64,000 nucleotides of DNA from an uncultured Bacilli bacterium (GTDB taxonomy: Bacteria > Bacillota_I > Bacilli_A > ML615J-28 > CAG-313): positions 21,485 to 85,484 of the forward strand of contig CANQDG010000001.1 of the NCBI GenBank assembly GCA_947591495.1, in the 5' to 3' direction. A program made the position numbers and the translations under genes. Shown one piece after another: positions 9,391 through 51,927 of this stretch. Under the pieces are notes generated by a model. That model had not been told where the DNA came from. It did not search any database and worked only from the letters and a program-made list of their open reading frames with translations. The stretch's first letter is position 1; each line of letters starts with the position of its first letter.

Positions 9391-9676
9391 AATTTTTCTC
9401 CCTTTCATATATAAAAAAAATAGATGTTTTTATAAGACTATTTGCATATTTTGATACAAACATTATTATTTTAACATAGATAATTATCCTTTGGTTATAA
9501 TTGATAGCAATTATGGAGGAAAAATTGACAATTACATATTATTATAATTTATTAAAAAAGTTTGATAAATTAATATTAAGTATTTTTTTTCCCATTTTAC
9601 TTTAATAAAAAGAAAGAAAGTGATATAATAAACTATAAAGTGGAGTATTATGCATCAAAGATGCGAGGTAAAAATT

Positions 9677-12600
9677 ATGAAAGCCAAAAACGAAAGAAAA
9701 TATTACATTCAAGGTCGAAACCAACATTTAATGAACGTCTTAGAAAAAGATTATTATATTGAAATTGGTACGATTGATATGGCCGTTTTAAATAAAATTA
9801 TCAAAAAAGAAAAAGTTAAATTAGGAGAATTAATTATTCCTCATAATTTAGATAATGATGTAAAAGGTCATGAAAAAACATCAGAAGAACAAGCCAAAGA
9901 TATAGAAATAGCTAATGAAAATTTAGGTCGTTTATGTGAAGGAATTGGACAAATCACCAGTAATTATGAGACCGACTTATATTATCAGTTAAACTATTTA
10001 ATTAATTTACGGCTTAAAAATGCTACTTCAAAGTTTTTCATTACAGCTGGTATCGTTAAAATTTTTGACGAAAAGGGCTGTGAAAAATATGCTCCTGTGG
10101 TTTTAATACCTTTTGAATTTAATTATAAATTTGACTATGATAATGAAATTGATAAAGCTATCTTTCAAACCGAATTAGTTGTTTGTGATGATCCTGTTAT
10201 TAATACCCAATTAATTAAATATGCTTCAAATATTTGTGAAAGTGCTAAAGTTGATAATAAAAAATTTAATGATTATTATTTAAACCATCCGCTTGCTAGT
10301 GCTAAAGATATTGATAAACTTTGCATTGATTTAGCAAAGGATATGCATACAACGGTTCAACCTGATAATTATTTAACTATTGCTTTTGTTGAATATCCTG
10401 ATATTATTTTAGATAAAGCATATATGTCGGTTGAAGGCTCTATCAATGAAATGACCGAAGAAAATATTTTTGAAAAATATTACAAAAATATTAATGCCAT
10501 TATGCCAACTAATACACTTCAAAAATATGTATTATTAAAAGCTAATGATGGTGATAGATTCGCAGTAGATGGTAATTTAGGTAGTGGTAAAACGCATACC
10601 ATTATAAATATTATGGCCGACCAAATTATGAAAAATAAAAAGATTTTATATGTCAATCAAGATTTAGATAACATCTTTGATTTAGAAAAGAATCTTTGTG
10701 CATTAGGTATGAAAAACTACCTTTATGATTTAACCCAAAATTTATTAAATGTTGATAATAATCTCGAAAGACTTTTAGGCGATAAAGTTACGTTTGAACG
10801 AATTGATACAAAAGGTATTTCAAATACCATTATTAAAGATATTTTCGTTTTGCCAAATACTTTACAAAAAAGACTTCATGGATTTAAAATTAATAATATT
10901 TTCAATTATCTTGCGCTTATTAAACAAAAATACCCTGATGTTTACCAAATGCCTTTAGAAATTAAACTTGAATATCATGAAGCTGAATTAATTTATCATC
11001 AATTAGAAACAATCGAAGAATCCTTAAAAGTAATTGATTTGTATGCTGATAATATTTGGCATCGTCTCCAAGTATCACATAATAATATTACCATTGATGA
11101 CATCATTAGCCGCATTAAAGATTTAGCTTTGATTCATAAAAAAACCAATGATGCTTTGAAAAAGTTTATTAATAAATATGGTATTATGATGCCAAGTAAT
11201 ATTAACGAACTTTATAAAATTATTTTGCATATTTATAGCTTTGTATCGGTTAGACCATTACCAAAATGGAAAAAAGATGAAGTTAGAAGAAAAATTTTAA
11301 CCAATTTAAGAGAAATTCAATCGCTTGTTGATATTAACTATAATATTAATAAATATTATGAAAGTACCGTTTGTAAAAATTATCAAATAGGTAGAATGAA
11401 GGAAATCGTTGATACTATTGCTTCAAAATACATTAAAATTGATAAAGATTATCAAACTAAAAATGCTATTTTTATTAATCGTCTTATTAGTTATGGTGAT
11501 AGCCTTAGTCGTCTATGTAATGAAATAAATGATAATGTGCTTAAAATGGATAAAATTAGTGCTACTTTATCTAATATTTTTAATCCTACTATTTTAGATG
11601 AAAACACTTATAATTTCATTACCGGTCTTAGTAATCTTTTATCAAATAATAAGTTAGATATTATCTTATTTGAAAAATATCAAGATTCTTCAGCACTATT
11701 TACTAAGCATTGTGACAATATTTTAAATGTTTATGATGAATACCAAGAAGTGCGTGAATTTTTACTTACTTATTTGAATCATTTTGAATTATTAACAACT
11801 GATCTCATTGATTCAGCATCAAAAAGAAAAAATCCTAAACATTCATTTGGTGCTTTTCTTAATAAAAAAGCTATTAAACAAAATCATACTAATCTTCAAG
11901 ATATTATTGATAATATATATAAATATGGTAAACTTCGTAAAAATATTAGTAGTGAATTAGCCATTATTTTTAATAAAAAAGAATTCAGTGAAGAATTTAT
12001 TAGTGTATTTGTGCAATTTGCTAATTTTATAGCTGATCTTTCTAATGTTCAAAAAACTTATTTTGAAGCCTTTTTAAATAAAATGAGTAATGAGAAAAAT
12101 CATTTGCAATATTTAAGACAAGTTAACCAAATATTAAAAGATTGTAAAGAAGAAGGATATCGCACCACAAGTATTTGTACTAATTTAAGATATTATAATA
12201 TTATCATTGATGATAATAACGTCTTTAATAAAGTTTCATCGCTAAAGACTTGTCGCAAATACTTACAAAATATTGATAAATTAAAAACAGAAATATCAAC
12301 TATTTTTAATAATTCACAACACGTTCAATATGATGAGATGGTAACTTTAATTAAAACCGATTTACAATATCAAGATTTACAAGATAATCTTATCAATCAT
12401 GCTGATACATATAAACAAAATCTAGGAAAATACTATAATGGTTTAGATACAATTATTAATGAAATTGGTCGAACGATTGAGCATTATGATGAATTCTTAA
12501 AAGTTTTAATTAATAAAGATAATATTAATAATTTACTAACTGATGAAACTTTTGATGAATTGTTAGAAGAAGCAAAAGATTTAAATAATTTATATGATAA

Positions 12601-45470: not shown

Positions 45471-45996
45471 AACGTTAAGAAAAATCATTAAAATAGCCAT
45501 TTTTGCTTCGATGCTAGCAGTAATGTCACCATGGTCAATTAATATAAGTATAATACCTATTACCTTTGCTCTTTTTGCAATCTATTTAATTGGTGCTGTT
45601 ACCAAAGGTTTTGACGGCCTTTTTGCGACAATGATTTATATTGTTTTAGGAATTATTGGACTTCCGATATTTTCATCGTTTAGAAGTGGTATTAGTGTCA
45701 TAGTGGGACCTACAGGAGGTTATCTTGTAGGTTATTTACCTTGTATTTTATGTGTTAGTTTAATAACATCAATTAATAAGAAAAAATTTTTTCTCTATCC
45801 TTTATCGATGATTATAGGAACGTTTTTTTGCTATTTGCTAGGAACCATTTGGTATGTTATATTAACAGAAAATTCAATTGGTTATGCTATAAGTGTTTGT
45901 GTATTGCCTTTTATTTTAGGAGATATGATCAAGATTATAGTTGCAAGCATAGTGGCATATATAATTAATACTAAGACCAAAATTTTTAATTATTAA
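45463..45996 (+). CDS. bioY: biotin ECF-transporter S component BioY
   Basis: 177 aa with 5-6 TM helices and a BioY-like sequence (GPTGGYLVGYL). Overlaps the birA stop. Confidence 0.8.
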   Translation: MNKTLRKIIKIAIFASMLAVMSPWSINISIIPITFALFAIYLIGAVTKGFDGLFATMIYIVLGIIGLPIFSSFRSGISVIVGPTGGYLVGYLPCILCVSLITSINKKKFFLYPLSMIIGTFFCYLLGTIWYVILTENSIGYAISVCVLPFILGDMIKIIVASIVAYIINTKTKIFNY

Positions 45997-46064
45997 TAAA
46001 AATAAATAATAATAAAGCGTCATTAAAGAGTTTTTCCCAATATTTTGATATAATATCAATAGAT

Positions 46065-46153
46065 GGAAAATTACTCAAGTGGTTGAAGAGGATGGTTTCG
46101 AAAACCATTAGGGTGTCAAAGCTGCGGGGGTTCGAATCCCCCATTTTCCGCCA
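46065..46153 (+). tRNA. tRNA-Ser (anticodon CGA)
   Basis: Acceptor stem GGAAAAT / ATTTTCC with discriminator G and an encoded CCA. Anticodon stem ATGGT / ACCAT with loop TTCGAAA. Long variable arm and T-arm GGTTCGAATCC. Confidence 0.8.
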
Positions 46154-46427
46154 TTAATGTTATTTGTTCTTTCATAATAATGAATTTTAAATCAATATAT
46201 TACAAGAACTACAACAAAATTTTTGCAAACTGGAAGATTTGTAGACCCAATTTCTGATGTTGGTCTTAAACCAAAATATGCAATACAACAATTAATGAAA
46301 AAAGGACTACAATAAAAACCAAAAATAAAACTGTTACAACGCCATCAACAACGGCAACAGTTACTACAACAACTACAGAACAAGTGCTTTAAGGAAAAAA
46401 CTTAAGGACAAATGTGAGAAGTTATGG

Positions 46428-46470
46428 CAAGAAAGTTCGTAAGGTAAAAAGCAAGAACTTTCTTTTTTTG
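46428..46470 (+). terminator. hairpin + T-run
   Basis: AGAAAGTTC...GAACTTTCT followed by TTTTTTG. Confidence 0.4.
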
Positions 46471-46492
46471 CAACGTTATTATCTAAATTGAC

Positions 46493-46530
46493 GCAAAACA
46501 ATTGATATTTGCATTGTTTTGCGCTATAAT
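46493..46530 (+). promoter_or_regulatory. abiEi promoter with operator-like inverted repeat
   Basis: Perfect inverted repeat GCAAAACAAT-N10-ATTGTTTTGC. It overlaps a TTGATA -35 (46502-46507), with a 17-bp spacer before the -10 TATAAT (46525-46530). Confidence 0.6.
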
Positions 46531-46556
46531 AGTTAAAAAAAATAGGTGATTTGATT

Positions 46557-47294
46557 ATGGTAAAATGGATTCCCTTTGTTATTACAAAAAAGGATATGCG
46601 ACCGCATTTCTCGAGCGATATACAATATGAAAATTGGATCGCAGGGCAGCTTCGCGCTAAAAGAATCATGAAGGTGCGCAAAGGGCTCTATGTCCTAGTC
46701 GATATTACGGGTGAGCCGATGGCAACGAAATTTGAGATTGCAAGCAAAATCACGGATGACGCTTTTCTATGCTATCATTCGGCATTGGAATTTTACGGCG
46801 TGGCGAATCAGGTGTTCCATACGATGATGGTCGGGAGCAAGTTGCGGTTTAATTCGTTCTCTTTCCTCGACGTCGATTATATCCGCAAACAGCCAAACAA
46901 CGATTACGGTATCGCGTATATCAAACAGGCAGGGGTACGCGTCACCACGCTCGAGCGCACGGTGATTGACTGTATCAACAATATCGATTCGTGTGGTGGG
47001 ATTGACGAACTACTTGGTGCGCTTGTGCAGATCCGCATTCTCGATGAAAAAGAACTGCTTGGCACGCTCAATGCCTACAACAGTATATTTCTCTATCAAA
47101 AGGCGGGATATATTCTACAACACTATCAAGAAAAATTTGACTTGTCGGATGCTTTCTTTGTGGAATGCAAACGGCACTTGACAAAACAAGTGAAGTATTT
47201 CTTAAATGATGAATATGGTGAAGTGGAGTACAATTCCGAGTGGCGGCTGATGGCACCGAAAAATCTCATTTCTCGGATTGGAGGAGGCTATTAA
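46557..47294 (+). CDS. abiEi: AbiEi-family antitoxin/transcriptional regulator (type IV TA / abortive infection)
   Basis: N-terminal wHTH with the KGLYVLVD motif typical of AbiEi. GC content is visibly far above the flanks. AGGTGA RBS. Its stop abuts the start of abiEii. Confidence 0.65.
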   Translation: MVKWIPFVITKKDMRPHFSSDIQYENWIAGQLRAKRIMKVRKGLYVLVDITGEPMATKFEIASKITDDAFLCYHSALEFYGVANQVFHTMMVGSKLRFNSFSFLDVDYIRKQPNNDYGIAYIKQAGVRVTTLERTVIDCINNIDSCGGIDELLGALVQIRILDEKELLGTLNAYNSIFLYQKAGYILQHYQEKFDLSDAFFVECKRHLTKQVKYFLNDEYGEVEYNSEWRLMAPKNLISRIGGGY

Positions 47295-48233
47295 ATGCAA
47301 TTTTCAAAGCAATATTTGAGTAGTTTAGCAGCGCAGACGGGTTTCATCAAGGAAACACTCGAAAAGGTCTTACGCCTTGCCGAGGTCTTGCGATTTCTGA
47401 ACGGCGATTCCCTCATCGGTGGAAAGCTCGCATTGAAAGGTGGCACGGCAATCAATCTAACGGCGGCCGAACTTCCACGGCTATCCGTGGATATTGACCT
47501 CGACTATGCGGAAAACGTCACCCGCGATAAACTTCCTGTCGCAAAGGAAAAGATTGGCAAGCGCCTCACAGACTATATGTTCCAAGAAGGTTATTCGTTC
47601 ATCGACACGAGGGAATATTTTGCCCTTACATCTTTTGTGTTTGGCTATATCAACTGCGCAGGCAATCGGGACAATATAAAGGTCGATGTCAACTATCTCG
47701 ACCGTTGCCATATCCTTCCCCTCGAAAAGAAGAACCTTTTGACGAAGGGGATTATTGGCGGCTTTAACGTTCTTGCACTGAACATGACCGAACTATATGC
47801 CAGCAAGATCAACGCGCTTTTGTCGCGGGCGACGCCGCGGGACTTGTACGATGTCCATTCGATGATTGAGCACGATATCGTAACCGATAAGACTTTGCTC
47901 AGAAAATGCTTGATATTTTACAGTGTCATCGCGGGCGACTATTCGATTACGGAATTGAACTACGCCAATCTCAAAAGTTTGAATTTTTACAAATTCAAGA
48001 CGCAGTTAAAGCCCGTGATCGCCAAGACGGATCCTTTTGACATCGAAAATGCAAAGATAATCGTGATAGACTACTTAAAAGATCTGATTGTCTTGACGGC
48101 GGGTGAAACCGAATTCGTGCAGAAAATGAAAGAGAAAGTTTATGAGCCTTCACTCCTTTTCGATGACGAGGCTATTGTCCAACGTATCTTACACCACCCC
48201 GCCGCATTGTGGCGCACGAGAGGAACGGAATAA
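47295..48233 (+). CDS. abiEii: AbiEii/AbiGii-family nucleotidyltransferase toxin (DUF1814)
   Basis: LALKGGTAINL...RLSVDIDLDY nucleotidyltransferase motif characteristic of AbiEii. GC-rich. Confidence 0.75.
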   Translation: MQFSKQYLSSLAAQTGFIKETLEKVLRLAEVLRFLNGDSLIGGKLALKGGTAINLTAAELPRLSVDIDLDYAENVTRDKLPVAKEKIGKRLTDYMFQEGYSFIDTREYFALTSFVFGYINCAGNRDNIKVDVNYLDRCHILPLEKKNLLTKGIIGGFNVLALNMTELYASKINALLSRATPRDLYDVHSMIEHDIVTDKTLLRKCLIFYSVIAGDYSITELNYANLKSLNFYKFKTQLKPVIAKTDPFDIENAKIIVIDYLKDLIVLTAGETEFVQKMKEKVYEPSLLFDDEAIVQRILHHPAALWRTRGTE

Positions 48234-48651
48234 AGACAAAATAGGTTGAATTTGGCAATATTCAAAGATGTGGTGCTAATGGATATTAATGAAAAAAATA
48301 AGGTAATTCTTGTGCTGAAAATTTACGATAACATAGAATTAAAATTTTCCGCTGGTTGAAATGGCATTTGGTGCAAGCGCAAAGGATAAATTATTGCGCT
48401 AGATATTTTAATATTCACGGATGAAATATAATTTGCAATCAGATAGATGATTTAGCTAGGTATAATAATTGTGTATATGATAATTTGTTTAAAAATGGAA
48501 TTAGATATAATATAGGTGTAAAAAATTTTCGTATATAAGAGAGTTAAATATCTGGGCAATTTTAACACATCTTGTAGTATATAGTAATGATGAAACTCTC
48601 TTATAGGGAAGTTTTTTTGCAATTTATAGGTCAAACAGGGATGATGGCTTT

Positions 48652-48981
48652 ATGAAGAAAATATTTATAGTTTTAGCTAGCATAATGTTTATAATGTGTT
48701 TAACTGGATGCAAAAAAGAATATTCTGATGATAGTTTAGAATTATATATAAAATTAGAATATAAAGATAAATTTGAAAATCAGGAATTTACAATGACTGA
48801 TTTTAAATATGATAATCTGAAAAGTTTTTGGTATTATGGTTGGTATGATGATAATGATGAAAGTTATGGCATAATGTTTATATATTTGCAAAAAGCTGGA
48901 CAAAAAGCAATAAAACATTTTGAAAAACTTGAATTCGTAAAAGATGTAAAAAAAGAACCATTAATGGAAATTGCAAGTTAG
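48652..48981 (+). CDS. small lipoprotein (hypothetical)
   Basis: Signal peptide with lipobox LTGCKK. 109 aa. Confidence 0.5.
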   Translation: MKKIFIVLASIMFIMCLTGCKKEYSDDSLELYIKLEYKDKFENQEFTMTDFKYDNLKSFWYYGWYDDNDESYGIMFIYLQKAGQKAIKHFEKLEFVKDVKKEPLMEIAS

Positions 48982-49152
48982 AGTAAAAGAAATTATTATA
49001 TGAAGAAAAACAAAAAAATTTATTTGTTTTTAATCTAGAAGAATGAAAATGCTGCATAGCCAAAAGTGCTCTAAAATATGATAGTTTTATGGTATTTTTT
49101 CATAATAGTTATAATCTATTACTTTAGATGGGGCAAAAAATATAATTTCAGT

Positions 49153-49185
49153 AACTCTCTTGTTTAACATAAGGGAGTTTTTTGC
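49153..49185 (+). terminator. hairpin + T-run upstream of lipoprotein gene (repeated leader element)
   Basis: AACTCTCTT-GTTTAACAT-AAGGGAGTT followed by TTTTGC. A degenerate copy lies at 48593-48620. Confidence 0.5.
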
Positions 49186-49234
49186 TTTATTATCTATTTA
49201 GTTTTATAAAATAATAATTGAGGAGGATATATCT

Positions 49235-49798
49235 ATGAATTCATTCAAAAGATTGTTTATTTTATTTGGAGTGATACTCTTTATTATATTTCTTCCCTCT
49301 TGTTTCAAACATGAACATTTTGAATTTCAAGAAGGAATATATAAATATGATGGTGAACCATTTTTGTTTTATCAAGATGTAATAATTGAAGATATAATTA
49401 TTGAATTTAAAGAATCTGATCTTGATTATAATGATTTAGAAGATAAAACTAATTATATTCAAAATCGTAAAAATAAAAAAACATATGAAGTAATATTTAG
49501 TTTGAAAAGACAAAATGAAACTAATTATATTGAAGCATCTTTTCTATCACTTCCTAAAGTTGGTGATCAAATTGATCGATATCGTATTGATATTGATTTA
49601 ACAGATTTAATGAAAGAAGAAGCAAGAGCAGAATTTCGTTTGCAATTTTCAAATAATATAAATGAAGAACCTATTGCTAATGAAATATCATTAGATTTAA
49701 TGGAACTAACTATTAATGGAAATACAAAAAACATAATGCCAGAAGATGATCCATTTAATTATAGTAATAGTTTGTATTATATAGGAGGAAATATATGA
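49235..49798 (+). CDS. lipoprotein (hypothetical)
   Basis: Signal peptide with lipobox LPSCFK. GGAGGA RBS. 187 aa. Confidence 0.5.
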   Translation: MNSFKRLFILFGVILFIIFLPSCFKHEHFEFQEGIYKYDGEPFLFYQDVIIEDIIIEFKESDLDYNDLEDKTNYIQNRKNKKTYEVIFSLKRQNETNYIEASFLSLPKVGDQIDRYRIDIDLTDLMKEEARAEFRLQFSNNINEEPIANEISLDLMELTINGNTKNIMPEDDPFNYSNSLYYIGGNI

Positions 49799-50070
49799 AG
49801 AAATTTTTAATTATAATTTTATCAATAATTTCAATTTCAAGTTTTTATTATTTATTACCCAAAACTATAAATGCTACAAAAATACTATATGATAAAGTTG
49901 TGGTTCAATATGTGTGCTAGTCGTGAAGATGGGTTTTTAATGTCATATCAAAATGAATGCAAAAATAGGCAAGTTATGCCTATAATATTACTCTATTCAA
50001 AATAGAATTAGACATTATGACAAGAGGAATAATTAACGAAGATTAATTAAACGCTTTAAGAGAATGCTTG

Positions 50071-50127
50071 CGAAAACCATTATGGTTGTAAAAGACTGCA
50101 GGGCTTTGAATCGTCCATTTTCCGTCA
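50071..50127 (+). repeat. degenerate direct repeat of tRNA-Ser 3' portion (attR-like / tRNA pseudogene)
   Basis: GCGAAAACCATTA...TTTGAATCGTCCATTTTCCGTCA aligns with tRNA positions 46097-46153 at roughly 70-75% identity. Weak similarity may extend over the whole tRNA, back to about 50035. Confidence 0.5.
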
Positions 50128-50322
50128 TTAACTTAACCAGATTGATAAATTCATGCAAACATAAATTTTTGTTTTTATGAATTATCAGTCTGTTTTTTAT
50201 TTATAAAGCAATATTAAAATAGTAGTTAAATAGACAAAAAATGAAAAAAAATAAAAAATTGTCTATTTAAATTGACTTTTTTAATGATGGTAGTATAGCA
50301 TTATTGAATGGAGTTGATTTTT

Positions 50323-50475
50323 ATGCAACTATATAAAAGAGAACAATATTTAAAAAAAATTAGAGGCTTTTATCATGATAATGAAATGATAAAAGTTATA
50401 ACAGGTGTTAGAAGATGTGATAAATCATCAATGATGCTAATGATAAAAGATGAGCTTATTAATAGTAAGCTATAA
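50323..50475 (+). pseudogene. N-terminal fragment of a DUF4143/COG1373 AAA+ ATPase with disrupted P-loop
   Basis: A 50-aa ORF with REQYLKKI...IKVITGVRRCDKS matches the N-terminus of this ATPase family. The P-loop glycine is replaced (GKS becomes DKS) and the ORF stops after 50 aa. Confidence 0.55.
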
Positions 50476-50491
50476 AACATAACTATTCAAT

Positions 50492-50580
50492 AATTGCATA
50501 TTTTCAATAGTTTTTTGCTAATAAAATTGCATATTTTTAATAGTTTTTTACTAATAAAATTGCATATTTTTAATAATTAA
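50492..50580 (+). repeat. 33-bp tandem direct repeats (about 2.5 copies) upstream of AAA ATPase gene
   Basis: AATTGCATATTTTCAATAGTTTTTTGCTAATAA, then AATTGCATATTTTTAATAGTTTTTTACTAATAA, then a partial third copy. Confidence 0.65.
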
Positions 50581-50610
50581 TATATAATATTAATAGAAAG
50601 GATAAAAAAT

Positions 50611-51927
50611 ATGCAAAGAGAAATATATGAGAAACTGGTAGAATGGAAGAATCGATCTAATAAAAAGCCATTAATAGTTTTTGGTGCCAGACAAGTTGGT
50701 AAAACATATTTAATAGAAAAGTTTGGTAAGGAAAATTATGAATATTTGTTTTATATTAATTTTGAATTTGACATTAAGGCCAAAAGATTATTTGAAAATA
50801 ATCTAGATATTAAAACTATCCTCTTTCAACTATCTGCTTATAATTCTAGCATTCCTATTATTGAGGGTAAAACATTAATTTTTTTAGATGAAGTACAAAA
50901 ATGTCCACAAGTTTTAACAGCTTTAAAGGCTTTTGCCATAGATAATAGATTTGATGTTATAGTAAGTGGATCAATGCTTGGCATTATTATGCATGAAGTA
51001 TCTTCCTTTCCTGTTGGATATGTTGAAAGATTACATATGCTACCAATGTCATTTAAAGAATTTTTATGGGCTAATAATTATTCTGATGAAATGATATTAG
51101 AATTAAAAAAGTATTATGATGAAAAAAAACCACTACCGGAATTTTTACATGAAAAATTAAATGAATTATTTTTACATTATATTGTTGTAGGTGGTATGCC
51201 TGAAGTGGTAAAAACTTATATTGAAACTTCTAATATGTATAATGTAATAGAGGTACAAAAACGAATACTAGAAGACTATAAAGATGATGTTGCTAAATAT
51301 TCTACTAAAACGATGAAAGAAAAGGTTAGAGAATGTTTTGAATCAATTCCTGAACAACTAGCCAAAGATAATAAAAAGTTTCAATATAAAGTAGTTAAAT
51401 ATGGAACTACCTCAAGATATTATAGTAACTCATTAAATTGGATATTAGATTCTGGCCTAGGTATTAAAGTAAATCGCCTTAAAACTTTTGATATCCCACT
51501 TAGAGCGTATAGAGATTATAATGCTTTTAAATTTTATTTAAGTGATACAGGGTTGTTACTAGCTTTTTATAAAGAAAATTTAAGTAATGAAATTATTAAT
51601 GGTAATCTTGGAATATTTAAAGGTGCTATATTTGAAAATATTATTGCGCAATCATTAATATATAATGATTTAGATATTTATTATTATCAAAAAGCTGATA
51701 ATCTAGAAATAGATTTTGTTACATATTTTGATAATAAAATAGTTCCCATCGAAGTAAAATCAGGGAAAAATGTTAAAGCTACCAGTATAAAAAATATTAT
51801 AGAAAAAGAAAAACTAGATTATGGAATTATTTTATCAACTAATAATTTAAATTATGAAAATCCAAAAATAAAAATGTTACCATTATATATGATAATCTTT
51901 TTAAAAACAACAAATGGAATACAGTAG
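50611..51927 (+). CDS. AAA+ ATPase with C-terminal DUF4143 (COG1373 family)
   Basis: Walker A VFGARQVGKTYL and Walker B LIFLDEVQ. A C-terminal restriction-endonuclease-like DUF4143 region. Confidence 0.75.
   Translation: MQREIYEKLVEWKNRSNKKPLIVFGARQVGKTYLIEKFGKENYEYLFYINFEFDIKAKRLFENNLDIKTILFQLSAYNSSIPIIEGKTLIFLDEVQKCPQVLTALKAFAIDNRFDVIVSGSMLGIIMHEVSSFPVGYVERLHMLPMSFKEFLWANNYSDEMILELKKYYDEKKPLPEFLHEKLNELFLHYIVVGGMPEVVKTYIETSNMYNVIEVQKRILEDYKDDVAKYSTKTMKEKVRECFESIPEQLAKDNKKFQYKVVKYGTTSRYYSNSLNWILDSGLGIKVNRLKTFDIPLRAYRDYNAFKFYLSDTGLLLAFYKENLSNEIINGNLGIFKGAIFENIIAQSLIYNDLDIYYYQKADNLEIDFVTYFDNKIVPIEVKSGKNVKATSIKNIIEKEKLDYGIILSTNNLNYENPKIKMLPLYMIIFLKTTNGIQ

What the first reader, a model, noticed from the sequence alone, without database searches (positions are those of the whole stretch)
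46065..50127. tRNA-Ser(CGA)-flanked mini-island carrying a GC-rich AbiEi/AbiEii (type IV TA / abortive infection) cassette
Directly 3' of tRNA-Ser lies a ~4-kb segment ending in a degenerate copy of the tRNA 3' portion (an attR-like signature). Inside are coding debris and a two-gene cassette whose GC content is visibly far above the AT-rich background. The cassette is an AbiEi-like wHTH antitoxin (KGLYVL motif) abutting an AbiEii nucleotidyltransferase toxin (LKGGTAINL...RLSVDIDLDY). Its promoter carries a perfect 10-bp inverted repeat (GCAAAACAAT-N10-ATTGTTTTGC) across the -35, as expected for AbiEi autorepression. Two small lipoprotein genes complete the island. No integrase remains, so the island is fixed or decaying. 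This is a clear horizontally acquired phage-defence / addiction module.
Basis: partly seen in the sequence, partly recalled or inferred. Interest (0 to 1): 0.6.

Follow-up and report, generated by a model that had tools for sequence, protein, structure and literature searches.

The report
Acquired AbiE toxin–antitoxin cassette beside tRNA-Ser
This is an intact two-gene AbiE toxin–antitoxin / abortive-infection cassette that an AT-rich uncultured gut bacterium acquired from GC-richer bacteria, sitting in a ~4-kb insertion next to a tRNA-Ser gene; it is a well-supported but ordinary example of a very common defence/addiction module.

Summary
tRNA-Ser(CGA) lies at 46065-46153. A GC-rich block (0.44 against ~0.25) at 46475-48239 holds abutting abiEi (46557-47294) and abiEii (47295-48233). 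A perfect 11-bp inverted repeat brackets the -35 of the best promoter in the region. A degenerate tRNA copy lies at 50038-50131.

Corrections:
- The copy spans the whole tRNA, not only its 3' part. It matches a foreign allele (that of L001), not the window's own tRNA.
- Pfam does not recognise the antitoxin. PADLOC profiles (1.7e-75) and the predicted fold (Rv2827c/MenA4, S. agalactiae AbiEi) do.
- The "island" is composite. The 1.76-kb cassette, with its operator, occurs at 81-85% DNA identity in unrelated, tRNA-free contexts of GC-richer bacteria. The lipoprotein part has host-like composition and is restricted to this lineage.
- The left flank plus abiE recurs after tRNA-Ser in a different species (L001). 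It also recurs directly after the CCA of tRNA-Leu(TAG) in a third (L070).
- None of 46 related bioY–tRNA-Ser loci carries the insertion.
- No recombinase is present.

Both genes are under purifying selection (dN/dS 0.07-0.125).

Verdict: a new member of a known kind, of low to moderate interest. How the integrase-less element moves between tRNA 3' ends is unresolved.

The parts
46065..46153 (+). Functional tRNA-Ser(CGA), forming the left boundary of the insertion. Unlike the homologous tRNA in related genomes, it has no terminator within 100 nt downstream.
   Evidence: ARAGORN; Rfam tRNA model, 58 bits; terminator scan.
46154..46474 (+). AT-rich left flank, shared only with the AT-rich hosts L001 and L070. 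It starts exactly at the CCA of the tRNA. Positions 46330-46392 are the remnant 3' end (…TEQVL*) of a small upstream ORF. Positions 46430-46463 plus a T-run form a conserved hairpin.
   Evidence: 88-95% identity to L001; 85% identity to L070; alignment; in-frame stops; no significant similarity of 46154-46372 to GC-rich homologues.
46476..46539 (+). abiE promoter and putative AbiEi operator. Imperfect 27-nt inverted arms contain a perfect 11-bp core at 46492-46502 and 46513-46523. The -35 is TTGATA at 46502-46507, the -10 is TATAAT at 46525-46530, and the RBS AGGTGA lies just downstream of this part at 46544-46549.
   Evidence: The same architecture is kept in all cassette homologues: 13-20 of 27 positions overall and 6-10 of 11 in the core.
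46557..47294 (+). abiEi, a 245-aa two-domain antitoxin and repressor with an N-terminal winged helix and a C-terminal domain.
   Evidence: PADLOC AbiEi 1.7e-75; no Pfam hit; AlphaFold pLDDT 90.9; Foldseek to 1ZEL at 3e-7 and to 6Y8Q at 1.2e-5; dN/dS 0.07-0.08.
47295..48233 (+). abiEii, a 312-aa DUF1814 nucleotidyltransferase toxin. Its start codon abuts the abiEi stop codon.
   Evidence: PF08843 at 3e-23; PADLOC 8.7e-105; Foldseek to MenT4 (6Y56) at 1.2e-8, plus MenT3 and MenT1; invariant residues KGGTAINL, DIDxD, K171 and RDLYD; dN/dS 0.10-0.125.
48234..48651 (.). AT-rich non-coding spacer. Homology to cassette copies in other genomes stops at 48231-48241.
48652..48981 (+). Small lipoprotein 1 (109 aa, lipobox LTGC), with host-like GC of 0.23.
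   Evidence: No family hit beyond weak matches to lipoprotein signal peptides.
49235..49798 (+). Small putative lipoprotein 2 (187 aa, atypical lipobox LPSC). A 41-aa ORF at 49795-49920 overlaps its stop codon. It is an orphan gene restricted to this lineage.
   Evidence: Only 3 homologues among 5.8 billion proteins. The 62%-identical one lies between nusG and rplK in another MAG.
50038..50131 (+). Full-length decayed copy of tRNA-Ser(CGA) plus TTAA, forming the right boundary (attR-like). It shares the 2-nt-longer variable arm found only in the L001 allele.
   Evidence: E 3.6e-16; 77/95 identical to the L001 allele against 74/95 to the window's own tRNA; not called as a tRNA; no cloverleaf fold.
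50138..50198 (+). Strong intrinsic terminator, 10 nt after the pseudo-tRNA. It sits where related genomes carry the native tRNA-Ser terminator.
   Evidence: -22.1 kcal/mol, z -5.8, followed by T6. In relatives, 23 of 35 distinct flanks have a hairpin plus T-run within 100 nt of the CCA, in the clear cases starting about 13 nt after it.

Best explanation
**What it is.** The core is an intact abiEi-abiEii operon of the AbiE/MenAT family, with its own promoter.

**How it most likely works (inferred from characterised homologues).**
- AbiEii is a DUF1814 polymerase-beta-like nucleotidyltransferase.
- When free, it probably adds nucleotides to tRNA 3'-CCA ends. That blocks aminoacylation and translation, giving growth arrest or abortive infection.
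- AbiEi neutralises the toxin. The route is either binding with induced toxin auto-phosphorylation (as in S. agalactiae AbiE, MenT1 and MenT3) or the still unknown MenA4/MenT4 route.
- Through its N-terminal winged helix, AbiEi probably also represses its own promoter. It would bind the two inverted half-sites that cover the -35 and -10.

**How it got here.**
- Shown: the 1.76-kb cassette (46475-48239: operator, two genes, nothing else) came from GC-richer gut bacteria.
- Shown: in AT-rich Bacilli it is joined to an AT-rich left flank that begins exactly at a tRNA 3' end.
- Inferred: in this genome the flank, the cassette and about 1.8 kb of lineage-type DNA form a ~4-kb insertion. It sits between the native tRNA-Ser(CGA) and a decayed, foreign-allele tRNA-Ser copy, which is followed by the native terminator.
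- Inferred: the layout fits recombination at the tRNA 3' end, with a possible core CCATTAA. The recombinase would be encoded elsewhere, or the event was a single crossover through an element-borne tRNA copy.
- Shown: the insertion lies in a tRNA-Ser-to-tgt interval that is hypervariable among relatives.
For: **Family membership**
- Toxin: Pfam PF08843.
- Both proteins: PADLOC profiles.
- Predicted folds: both top matches are the two proteins of one M. tuberculosis operon, Rv2827c and Rv2826c.
- Catalytic-type residues are invariant across 38 homologues.
- dN/dS is 0.07-0.125.

**Operator**
- A perfect 11-bp inverted repeat sits on the best promoter in the region.
- Its architecture is conserved in every homologue.
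- The cassette's left homology boundary (46475) coincides with the outer edge of the left arm.
- Characterised AbiEi and Rv2827c bind 23-bp inverted repeats that overlap their promoters (PMC7319586).

**Horizontal transfer**
- Third-position GC is 0.52-0.575, against 0.08-0.20 for host genes.
- Cassette GC stays at 0.44-0.48 whatever the flank GC (0.36-0.54).
- Flanks are unrelated in L010, L015, L016, L018, L023 and L071-74.
- In L010 the cassette sits in a defence island with GmrSD, type III RM and Thoeris.

**Insertion**
- All 46 related bioY-tRNA-Ser loci lack it. In 23 of 35 distinct flanks the tRNA is followed by a terminator.
- In the window, that terminator follows the pseudo-tRNA, not the functional tRNA.
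- L001 carries the same flank and cassette at the same tRNA, at 88-95% identity, while core genes are 59-79% identical at protein level.
- The pseudo-tRNA is of the L001 allele type.
Against: - Nothing functional has been tested: toxicity, neutralisation, DNA binding and phage defence are all untested.
- S. agalactiae AbiE protected E. coli against none of 32 coliphages (preprint).
- Pfam has no model that recognises the antitoxin. Sequence and profile searches of the PDB found nothing for either protein.
- The best structural match for the toxin is MenT4, and its antitoxin mechanism is unknown. The auto-phosphorylation step therefore may not apply here.
- No empty site was found within the same species. 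All six conspecific contigs are collinear with the window.
- The right end of the element is not visible in L001, because the contig ends. It is absent in L070.
- No integrase is present.
- In L070 the flank follows tRNA-Leu, which a tRNA-Ser-specific mechanism cannot explain.
- dS against the nearest copies is 0.5 or more, so the transfer is not recent.
Confidence: 0.8

Rival explanations
1. The main job of the cassette is addiction. It stabilises the DNA segment or mobile element that carries it by post-segregational killing. It is not a phage defence.
For: AbiE stabilises ICESa2603-family elements in Streptococcus suis (PMC11062541, listed). S. agalactiae AbiE gave no protection against 32 coliphages. 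The cassette travels as a minimal self-regulated unit into many contexts.
Against: L. lactis AbiE is a demonstrated abortive-infection system (introduction of the preprint). One homologue sits in a dense defence island. In L070 the toxin gene has been deleted while the antitoxin survives, which shows the module can be lost. The two roles are not mutually exclusive.
Confidence: 0.3
2. There is no island. tRNA-Ser was duplicated in tandem in this lineage, the downstream copy decayed, and the cassette and other genes accumulated between the two copies independently.
For: The repeat covers the whole tRNA. Classic attR sites, which keep only a 3' fragment, usually do not. No integrase is present. 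Only the 1.76-kb cassette has a foreign composition.
Against: The pseudo-copy carries the two single-base insertions of the variable arm seen only in the L001 allele. It is closer to that allele (77/95) than to the window's own tRNA (74/95). None of 46 related loci has a second copy. The native-type terminator follows the pseudo-copy, not the functional gene. The left flank is shared at about 90% identity with another species, starting at the tRNA end.
Confidence: 0.1
3. Integration occurred by RecA-dependent single crossover (Campbell type). The partners were a circular DNA carrying a complete L001-type tRNA-Ser gene and the resident tRNA-Ser. No site-specific recombinase was involved.
For: The tRNA is duplicated at full length and no integrase is present. 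The left copy keeps the resident variable arm, while the right copy has the foreign arm followed by the resident terminator. That is the pattern expected from a crossover 3' of the variable arm.
Against: It does not explain the identical flank abutting the CCA of tRNA-Leu(TAG) in L070, where homology with tRNA-Ser is negligible. The available homology is only about 35-40 nt. The right copy is 17-22% diverged throughout, including the part that would have been resident DNA.
Confidence: 0.2
4. The abiE genes are native and vertically inherited in this lineage, and their high GC reflects amino-acid or expression constraints.
For: A syntenic relative (L001) has them at the same locus.
Against: Third-position GC is 0.52-0.575, against 0.08-0.20 in host genes. 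Identity to L001 jumps from 46-64% in the flanking native DNA to 88-95% from the tRNA 3' end onward. All 46 other syntenic relatives lack them. Close homologues sit in unrelated genomes with GC 0.39-0.59.
Confidence: 0.02

Closest known systems
MenA4-MenT4 (Rv2827c-Rv2826c) of Mycobacterium tuberculosis
   Same: - Best structural match for both proteins: 1ZEL at 3e-7 with TM 0.64, and 6Y56 at 1.2e-8 with TM 0.65.
- Same gene order, with the antitoxin first.
- Large two-domain antitoxin.
- Promoter overlapped by inverted repeats with a gap of about one helical turn: 13 bp there, 10 bp here.
   Different: - Sequence identity is only 14-18%.
- One pair of repeats here, against two pairs there.
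- The antitoxin is 245 aa, against about 295 aa.
- Firmicute-type sigma-70 promoter.
- The host is an AT-rich gut bacterium.
AbiE (AbiEi-AbiEii) of Streptococcus agalactiae and Lactococcus lactis pNP40
   Same: - Bicistronic operon with the antitoxin first, encoding a DUF1814 toxin.
- The AbiEi fold matches 6Y8Q at 1.2e-5.
- Autoregulatory inverted repeats lie at the promoter.
- Carried on mobile DNA.
   Different: - No detectable sequence similarity: phmmer and profile searches of the PDB found nothing.
- The Pfam AbiEi models do not hit.
- The repeats are 27-nt imperfect arms with an 11-bp perfect core and a 10-bp gap, not 23-bp arms with a 3-bp gap.
- Nucleotide and target specificity are unknown.
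tRNA-associated genomic islands and integrase-less att-flanked remnants (CIME-type, cis-mobilisable elements). This comparison rests on general knowledge, not on a tool result.
   Same: - Sits at a tRNA 3' end.
- Flanked by a direct repeat derived from the tRNA.
- Carries defence/addiction cargo and no recombinase.
- The same element occurs at the same tRNA in another species.
   Different: - The repeat is a whole decayed tRNA of a foreign allele, not a short 3' core.
- Only part of the island is compositionally foreign.
- The same left end is also joined to a different tRNA (Leu-TAG).
- No helper element has been identified.

Membership tests
AbiE / MenAT toxin-antitoxin (abortive infection) system | Toxin belongs to the DUF1814 (PF08843) nucleotidyltransferase family | tested here: met
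   PF08843 at 3e-23, 83 bits against a cutoff of 22.5. PADLOC AbiEii at 8.7e-105 over its full length. Foldseek matches to MenT4, MenT3 and MenT1 at probability 1.0.
AbiE / MenAT toxin-antitoxin (abortive infection) system | Polymerase-beta-type catalytic motifs in the toxin: GG[ST], DxD, and a downstream Lys and Asp | tested here: met
   K48-G49-G50-T51, D66/D68/D70, K171, R178 and R182-D183...D186 are invariant across 38 homologues. Mapping them onto the published catalytic residues is by inference only.
AbiE / MenAT toxin-antitoxin (abortive infection) system | Antitoxin is a COG5340/AbiEi-type protein with a winged-helix N-terminal domain and a C-terminal antitoxicity domain | tested here: met
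   Pfam fails: the best hit is AbiEi_1 at E 0.021, below its cutoff, and there is no AbiEi_4 hit. PADLOC AbiEi scores 1.7e-75. The model (pLDDT 90.9) has Rv2827c and S. agalactiae AbiEi as its only significant fold matches.
AbiE / MenAT toxin-antitoxin (abortive infection) system | Bicistronic operon with the antitoxin upstream of the toxin, translationally linked | tested here: met
   The abiEi stop codon (47292-47294) is followed at once by the abiEii ATG at 47295. GGAGGAGG lies 7 nt upstream. The promoter lies upstream of abiEi, and the best sigma-70 match in the region lies there.
AbiE / MenAT toxin-antitoxin (abortive infection) system | Negative autoregulation through inverted repeats overlapping the promoter | tested here: inconclusive
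   The repeat is present, perfect over 11 bp, covers the -35 and -10, and is conserved in architecture in all homologues. Binding and repression cannot be tested with these tools.
AbiE / MenAT toxin-antitoxin (abortive infection) system | The toxin arrests growth, the antitoxin rescues, and phage infection is aborted | not testable with these tools
   Indirect evidence only: dN/dS of 0.07-0.125 and a defence-island context for one homologue.
tRNA-integrated genomic island | Inserted at the 3' end of a tRNA gene and bounded by a direct repeat of tRNA sequence | tested here: met
   (E 3.6e-16). The repeat is a full-length, degenerate tRNA copy of a foreign allele.
tRNA-integrated genomic island | Encodes an integrase or recombinase | tested here: not met
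   Every ORF from 46154 to tgt (54159) was assigned or searched, and none is a recombinase.
tRNA-integrated genomic island | Absent from the same site in related genomes (empty site) | tested here: inconclusive
   All 46 related bioY-tRNA-Ser loci lack it, and many show the tRNA followed by a terminator. These are other species, however. All six conspecific contigs carry the insertion.
tRNA-integrated genomic island | Composition differs from the host across the island | tested here: not met
   Only 46475-48239 is atypical, at 0.44. The left flank is 0.29 and the right part is 0.22-0.28, both host-like.

The most novel reading that the evidence does not exclude
The AT-rich flank plus abiE may be the visible part of an undescribed family of small integrase-less elements in uncultured gut Bacilli. 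These would insert precisely at the CCA(TTAA) end of different tRNA genes: Ser-CGA in two species and Leu-TAG in a third. They would carry a decayed tRNA as their attachment arm and be moved in trans by an unidentified recombinase. A more remote idea links the tRNA-Ser-like copy to a toxin whose relatives modify tRNA-Ser. I consider that link very unlikely, because the copy is structurally decayed.
Probability: 0.15. Interest if true: 0.45.

Novelty: new member of a known kind. Interest (0 to 1): 0.25.

Why it matters
AbiE is among the most abundant defence/TA systems, so one more copy changes little. Three modest points remain.
- It documents inter-phylum-scale spread of a minimal, self-regulated 1.76-kb abiE unit (operator plus two genes) into very AT-rich uncultured gut Bacilli. 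The boundaries are sharp and fall exactly at the operator edge and the toxin stop codon.
- It identifies an AbiEi subfamily that is invisible to Pfam and to NCBI naming (its homologues are annotated 'hypothetical'). Structurally it is MenA4-like, and it would improve annotation profiles.
- The junctions at two different tRNA 3' ends, together with the foreign-allele pseudo-tRNA, give a concrete and testable case of how integrase-less islets move.

Tried and rejected
- **Exact-protein look-up of AbiEii.** Nothing on record.
- **DNA search of 46154-50140 against plasmids and phages.** No match.
- **attL junction pattern in metagenome and viral contigs.** No match. The left-flank pattern in viral contigs also gave no match.
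- **PDB sequence and profile searches for both proteins.** Nothing significant.
- **PHROGs and NCBIfam.** No hit for either AbiE protein.
- **Rfam at permissive E-values over 45900-50700.** Only the tRNA was found. There was no riboswitch or other RNA, and the pseudo-tRNA was not detected.
- **Search for a conspecific empty site.** Look-ups through BioY, lipo2 and the ATPase returned only collinear, island-bearing contigs.
- **Second tRNA fragments.** None in the 46 related loci or in L070.
- **Left flank 46154-46372 as a decayed form of the GC-rich upstream ORF.** Rejected, because alignment scores equal those of shuffles. Only 46373-46474 is homologous.
- **Remnant of the 121-aa/HTH_3 genes that follow abiEii in GC-rich hosts.** None in the window.
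- **Viral relatives of AbiEii.** At most 51% identical (≤47% over the full length), so they do not bear on the origin.
- **Not done.** The rest of the 64-kb window was not searched for recombinases.

Full report
**1. Observation**

ARAGORN and Rfam find one tRNA in the window, tRNA-Ser(CGA) at 46065-46153.

The composition profile shows a block at GC 0.44-0.49 between about 46600 and 48250. The background is 0.21-0.30.

Two abutting ORFs fill the block. One runs 46551/46557-47294 (245 aa from the ATG). The other runs 47295-48233 (312 aa). The second ORF starts on the base after the first ORF's stop codon, with GGAGGAGG 7 nt upstream.

Third-codon-position GC is 0.52 and 0.575. Six neighbouring host genes have 0.08-0.20.

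Upstream of the first ORF lies CGCAAAACAAT (46492-46502), then 10 nt, then ATTGTTTTGCG (46513-46523). This is a perfect 11-bp inverted repeat. It extends to imperfect 27-nt arms at 46476-46502 and 46513-46539.

The repeat brackets TTGATA-17 nt-TATAAT (46502-46530). That is the best sigma-70 match in 45900-50700, at 11 of 12 positions. Only six independent perfect inverted repeats of this size and spacing exist in the 64 kb.

A second, degenerate tRNA-Ser copy lies at 50038-50131 (E 3.6e-16; nothing else in the window comes close). It spans the entire tRNA plus four bases, at 78% identity over the 5' 49 nt and 83% over the 3' 36 nt. No tool calls it a tRNA, and it does not fold as one.

**2. 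The two proteins**

*Toxin.*
- It matches Pfam AbiEii PF08843 (3e-23).
- It matches a PADLOC AbiEii profile end to end (8.7e-105).
- A model built on 38 homologues (pLDDT 87) matches MenT4, MenT3/TglT and MenT1 of M. tuberculosis. The Foldseek E-values are 1e-8 to 3e-4, at probability 1.0.
- KGGTAINL, DIDxD, K171 and RDLYD are invariant in the family.

*Antitoxin.*
- It gets no Pfam assignment. AbiEi_1 scores E 0.021, below its cutoff, and there is no AbiEi_4 hit.
- It gets no NCBIfam assignment.
- None of its 238 database relatives carries a Pfam domain or an informative name.
- PADLOC AbiEi profiles match over the full length (1.7e-75).
- A confident model (pLDDT 90.9, pTM 0.87) has only two significant structural neighbours. 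They are Rv2827c (MenA4, 3e-7) and S. agalactiae AbiEi (1.2e-5).

The best structural hits of the two proteins are the two products of one M. tuberculosis operon, Rv2827c-Rv2826c.

dN/dS against four homologues is 0.07-0.08 for abiEi and 0.10-0.125 for abiEii. Both genes are therefore maintained by selection.

**3. The operator**

In every cassette homologue I retrieved, the same layout is kept. It comprises an outer TTxTTAxCTA box, an inner CGCAAAAC-type box, a 10-nt spacer holding the -35, and a right arm covering TATAAT. Between 13 and 20 of 27 positions are symmetric.

The window's copy has the most perfect core.

The left limit of DNA homology between cassette copies in unrelated genomes (46475-46478) is the outer edge of the left arm.

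Characterised AbiEi binds two 23-bp inverted repeats 3 bp apart. Rv2827c binds pairs 13 bp apart, overlapping the promoter (PMC7319586). The 10-bp gap here sits between these values. Autorepression is therefore a well-founded inference, but it is untested.

**4. Origin of the cassette**

The segment 46475-48239, and nothing beyond it, recurs at 81-85% DNA identity in contigs with GC 0.39-0.59. The flanks there are unrelated and no tRNA is nearby.
- L010 is a defence island with two GmrSD genes, an SbcCD-like pair, type III RM, Thoeris and a Mob relaxase.
- L015 lies next to shikimate-pathway genes.
- L016 lies next to an IS transposase.
- L018, L023 and L071-74 are further contexts.

Cassette GC is 0.44-0.48 in all of these, whatever the flank GC.

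In L071-74 the homology reaches about 100 nt further left, to 46373. That stretch covers the last codons (…TEQVL*) and the terminator hairpin of a small ORF that is Cys-rich and collagen-like (GxT repeats). In the window, this stretch survives as debris with in-frame stops.

dS to the nearest copies is 0.5-1.1. Third-position GC is somewhat lower in the AT-rich hosts (0.49-0.575) than in the GC-rich ones (0.56-0.68). The transfer is thus old enough for partial amelioration.

**5. The insertion and its boundaries**

*Conserved locus.* The bioY-tRNA-Ser(CGA) arrangement is conserved in 46 metagenomic loci and in L001. None of the 46 carries abiE, the lipoproteins or a second tRNA copy.

*Terminator position.* In 23 of 35 distinct flanks, the tRNA is followed by a terminator hairpin and a T-run; in the clear cases the hairpin starts about 13 nt after the CCA. 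In the window the functional tRNA has no such terminator. The pseudo-tRNA has a strong one, starting 10 nt downstream (-22.1 kcal/mol, z -5.8, then T6). The ancestral layout of tRNA plus terminator has therefore been split by about 4 kb.

*L001.* L001 is a different species with conserved synteny. Its protein identities to the window are LysR 79%, BirA 60.5% and BioY 59%. DNA identity is 64% in bioY and 46% in the spacer. From the tRNA 3' part onward it has the same left flank, promoter and abiEi at 88-95% identity, until the contig ends.

*Allele of the pseudo-tRNA.* The pseudo-tRNA is closest to the L001 tRNA allele (77/95, 1 gap). Identity to the window's own tRNA is 74/95 with 3 gaps. Alone among 48 alleles, the pseudo-tRNA shares the L001 allele's two single-base insertions in the variable arm. 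It is therefore not a local duplicate. It is a foreign, element-associated copy.

*L070.* In a third AT-rich MAG, the same flank and abiEi (85% identity to window 46151-47345) start exactly at the CCA of tRNA-Leu(TAG). abiEii there is mostly deleted, and rsgA follows. No repeat is detectable there.

*Junction sequences.*

| Junction | Sequence |
|---|---|
| Window, left | GCCATTAA\|TG |
| L070, left | ACCATTAA\|TG |
| Window, right | GTCATTAA\|CT |

Some relatives have CCATTAA natively after the tRNA (L028, L065). A 6-7-bp crossover core at the tRNA end would reconcile all three cases. A single homologous crossover through an element-borne tRNA copy would explain the window, but not L070.

*What is missing.* No recombinase gene lies anywhere between the tRNA and tgt. 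I found no conspecific empty site, because six same-species contigs are all collinear with the window.

**6. The rest of the "island"**

The segment 48240-50037 has host-like GC (0.22-0.28). It has no homologue next to any other cassette copy.

lipo2 has only three relatives in the protein database. The one at 62% identity lies between nusG and rplK in the same MAG as L070. These genes are lineage-type DNA and not cargo of the GC-rich cassette.

Whether they travelled with the AT-rich element cannot be decided without the right end of the element in L001-type genomes.

The whole tRNA-Ser-to-tgt interval is variable. It is 8.0 kb here and 4.9 kb, with entirely different genes, in L047 and L039.

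**7. Mechanism: what is shown and what is inferred**

*Shown:*
- family membership of both proteins;
- the operon and promoter architecture;
- purifying selection on both genes;
- foreign origin of the cassette;
- insertion relative to the ancestral tRNA-plus-terminator layout.

*Inferred from characterised homologues:*
- The toxin transfers nucleotides to tRNA 3'-CCA ends and stops translation.
- The antitoxin neutralises it. One route is binding plus induced auto-phosphorylation, as in S. agalactiae AbiE, MenT1 and MenT3. The invariant T51 in KGGT is a candidate acceptor. The other route is the unknown MenA4/MenT4 mode.
- AbiEi represses its own promoter.

The biological role, phage defence or stabilisation of mobile DNA, is open.

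**8. Verdict**

This is a new member, and a Pfam-invisible subfamily, of a very well-known kind. The only puzzling element is how the integrase-less AT-rich flank plus abiE came to sit exactly at the 3' end of two different tRNA genes.

Noticed in passing
window 50611-51927 (with 50308-50475 and 50492-50590): An AAA_14 + DUF4143 ATPase matches the PADLOC candidate defence system PDC-S01 (8e-156). It is preceded by three tandem 33-nt repeats. Before those lies a 55-aa ORF with a weak AAA_14 N-terminus (E 0.03), probably the remnant of a second such ATPase. This places a second putative defence gene in the same variable tRNA-Ser-to-tgt interval.
   Followed up: partly
L070 152-1540 (GCA_947627195.1, CANQVC010000030.1): The same AT-rich flank and abiEi start exactly at the CCA of tRNA-Leu(TAG). 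abiEii is reduced to fragments, so the antitoxin is orphaned, and rsgA follows. This shows that the element is not specific to tRNA-Ser and that the toxin gene can be lost first.
   Followed up: partly
L073 9660-9845; L071 about 9500-9840; window 46330-46470: In GC-rich hosts the cassette is preceded by a small ORF that is Cys-rich and collagen-like, with GxT repeats (61 aa in L073). It has no Pfam family. Its last codons and its terminator are conserved with the cassette and survive as debris in the window.
   Followed up: partly
L010 1-20909: A cassette homologue (85% amino-acid identity for AbiEii) sits in a dense defence island. The island carries two GmrSD genes, an SMC/Metallophos pair, a type III restriction-modification system and Thoeris (ThsA SIR2-STALD plus two TIR ThsB). 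A Mob_Pre relaxase gene lies next to it.
   Followed up: no
L047 3605-8489; L039: In relatives, the interval between tRNA-Ser and tgt carries entirely different cargo: a membrane protein, a cold-shock protein and two paralogous Big_2 surface proteins. The interval is therefore a general hotspot of gene flux in this bacterial family.
   Followed up: partly
window 48594-48622 and 49153-49185: Two similar hairpin-plus-T-run elements (AACTCTCTT...GGGA(A)GTT TTTTT) each lie about 30-50 nt upstream of a lipoprotein gene. The second is a good terminator (-11 kcal/mol, z -3.7). The first is part of a longer weak hairpin. No Rfam family matches either one.
   Followed up: partly
L075 10001-10540: The only distant homologue of lipoprotein 2 (62% identity) is inserted between nusG and rplK, within the conserved ribosomal-protein cluster of another MAG. 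That is an unusual place for an orphan gene.
   Followed up: no
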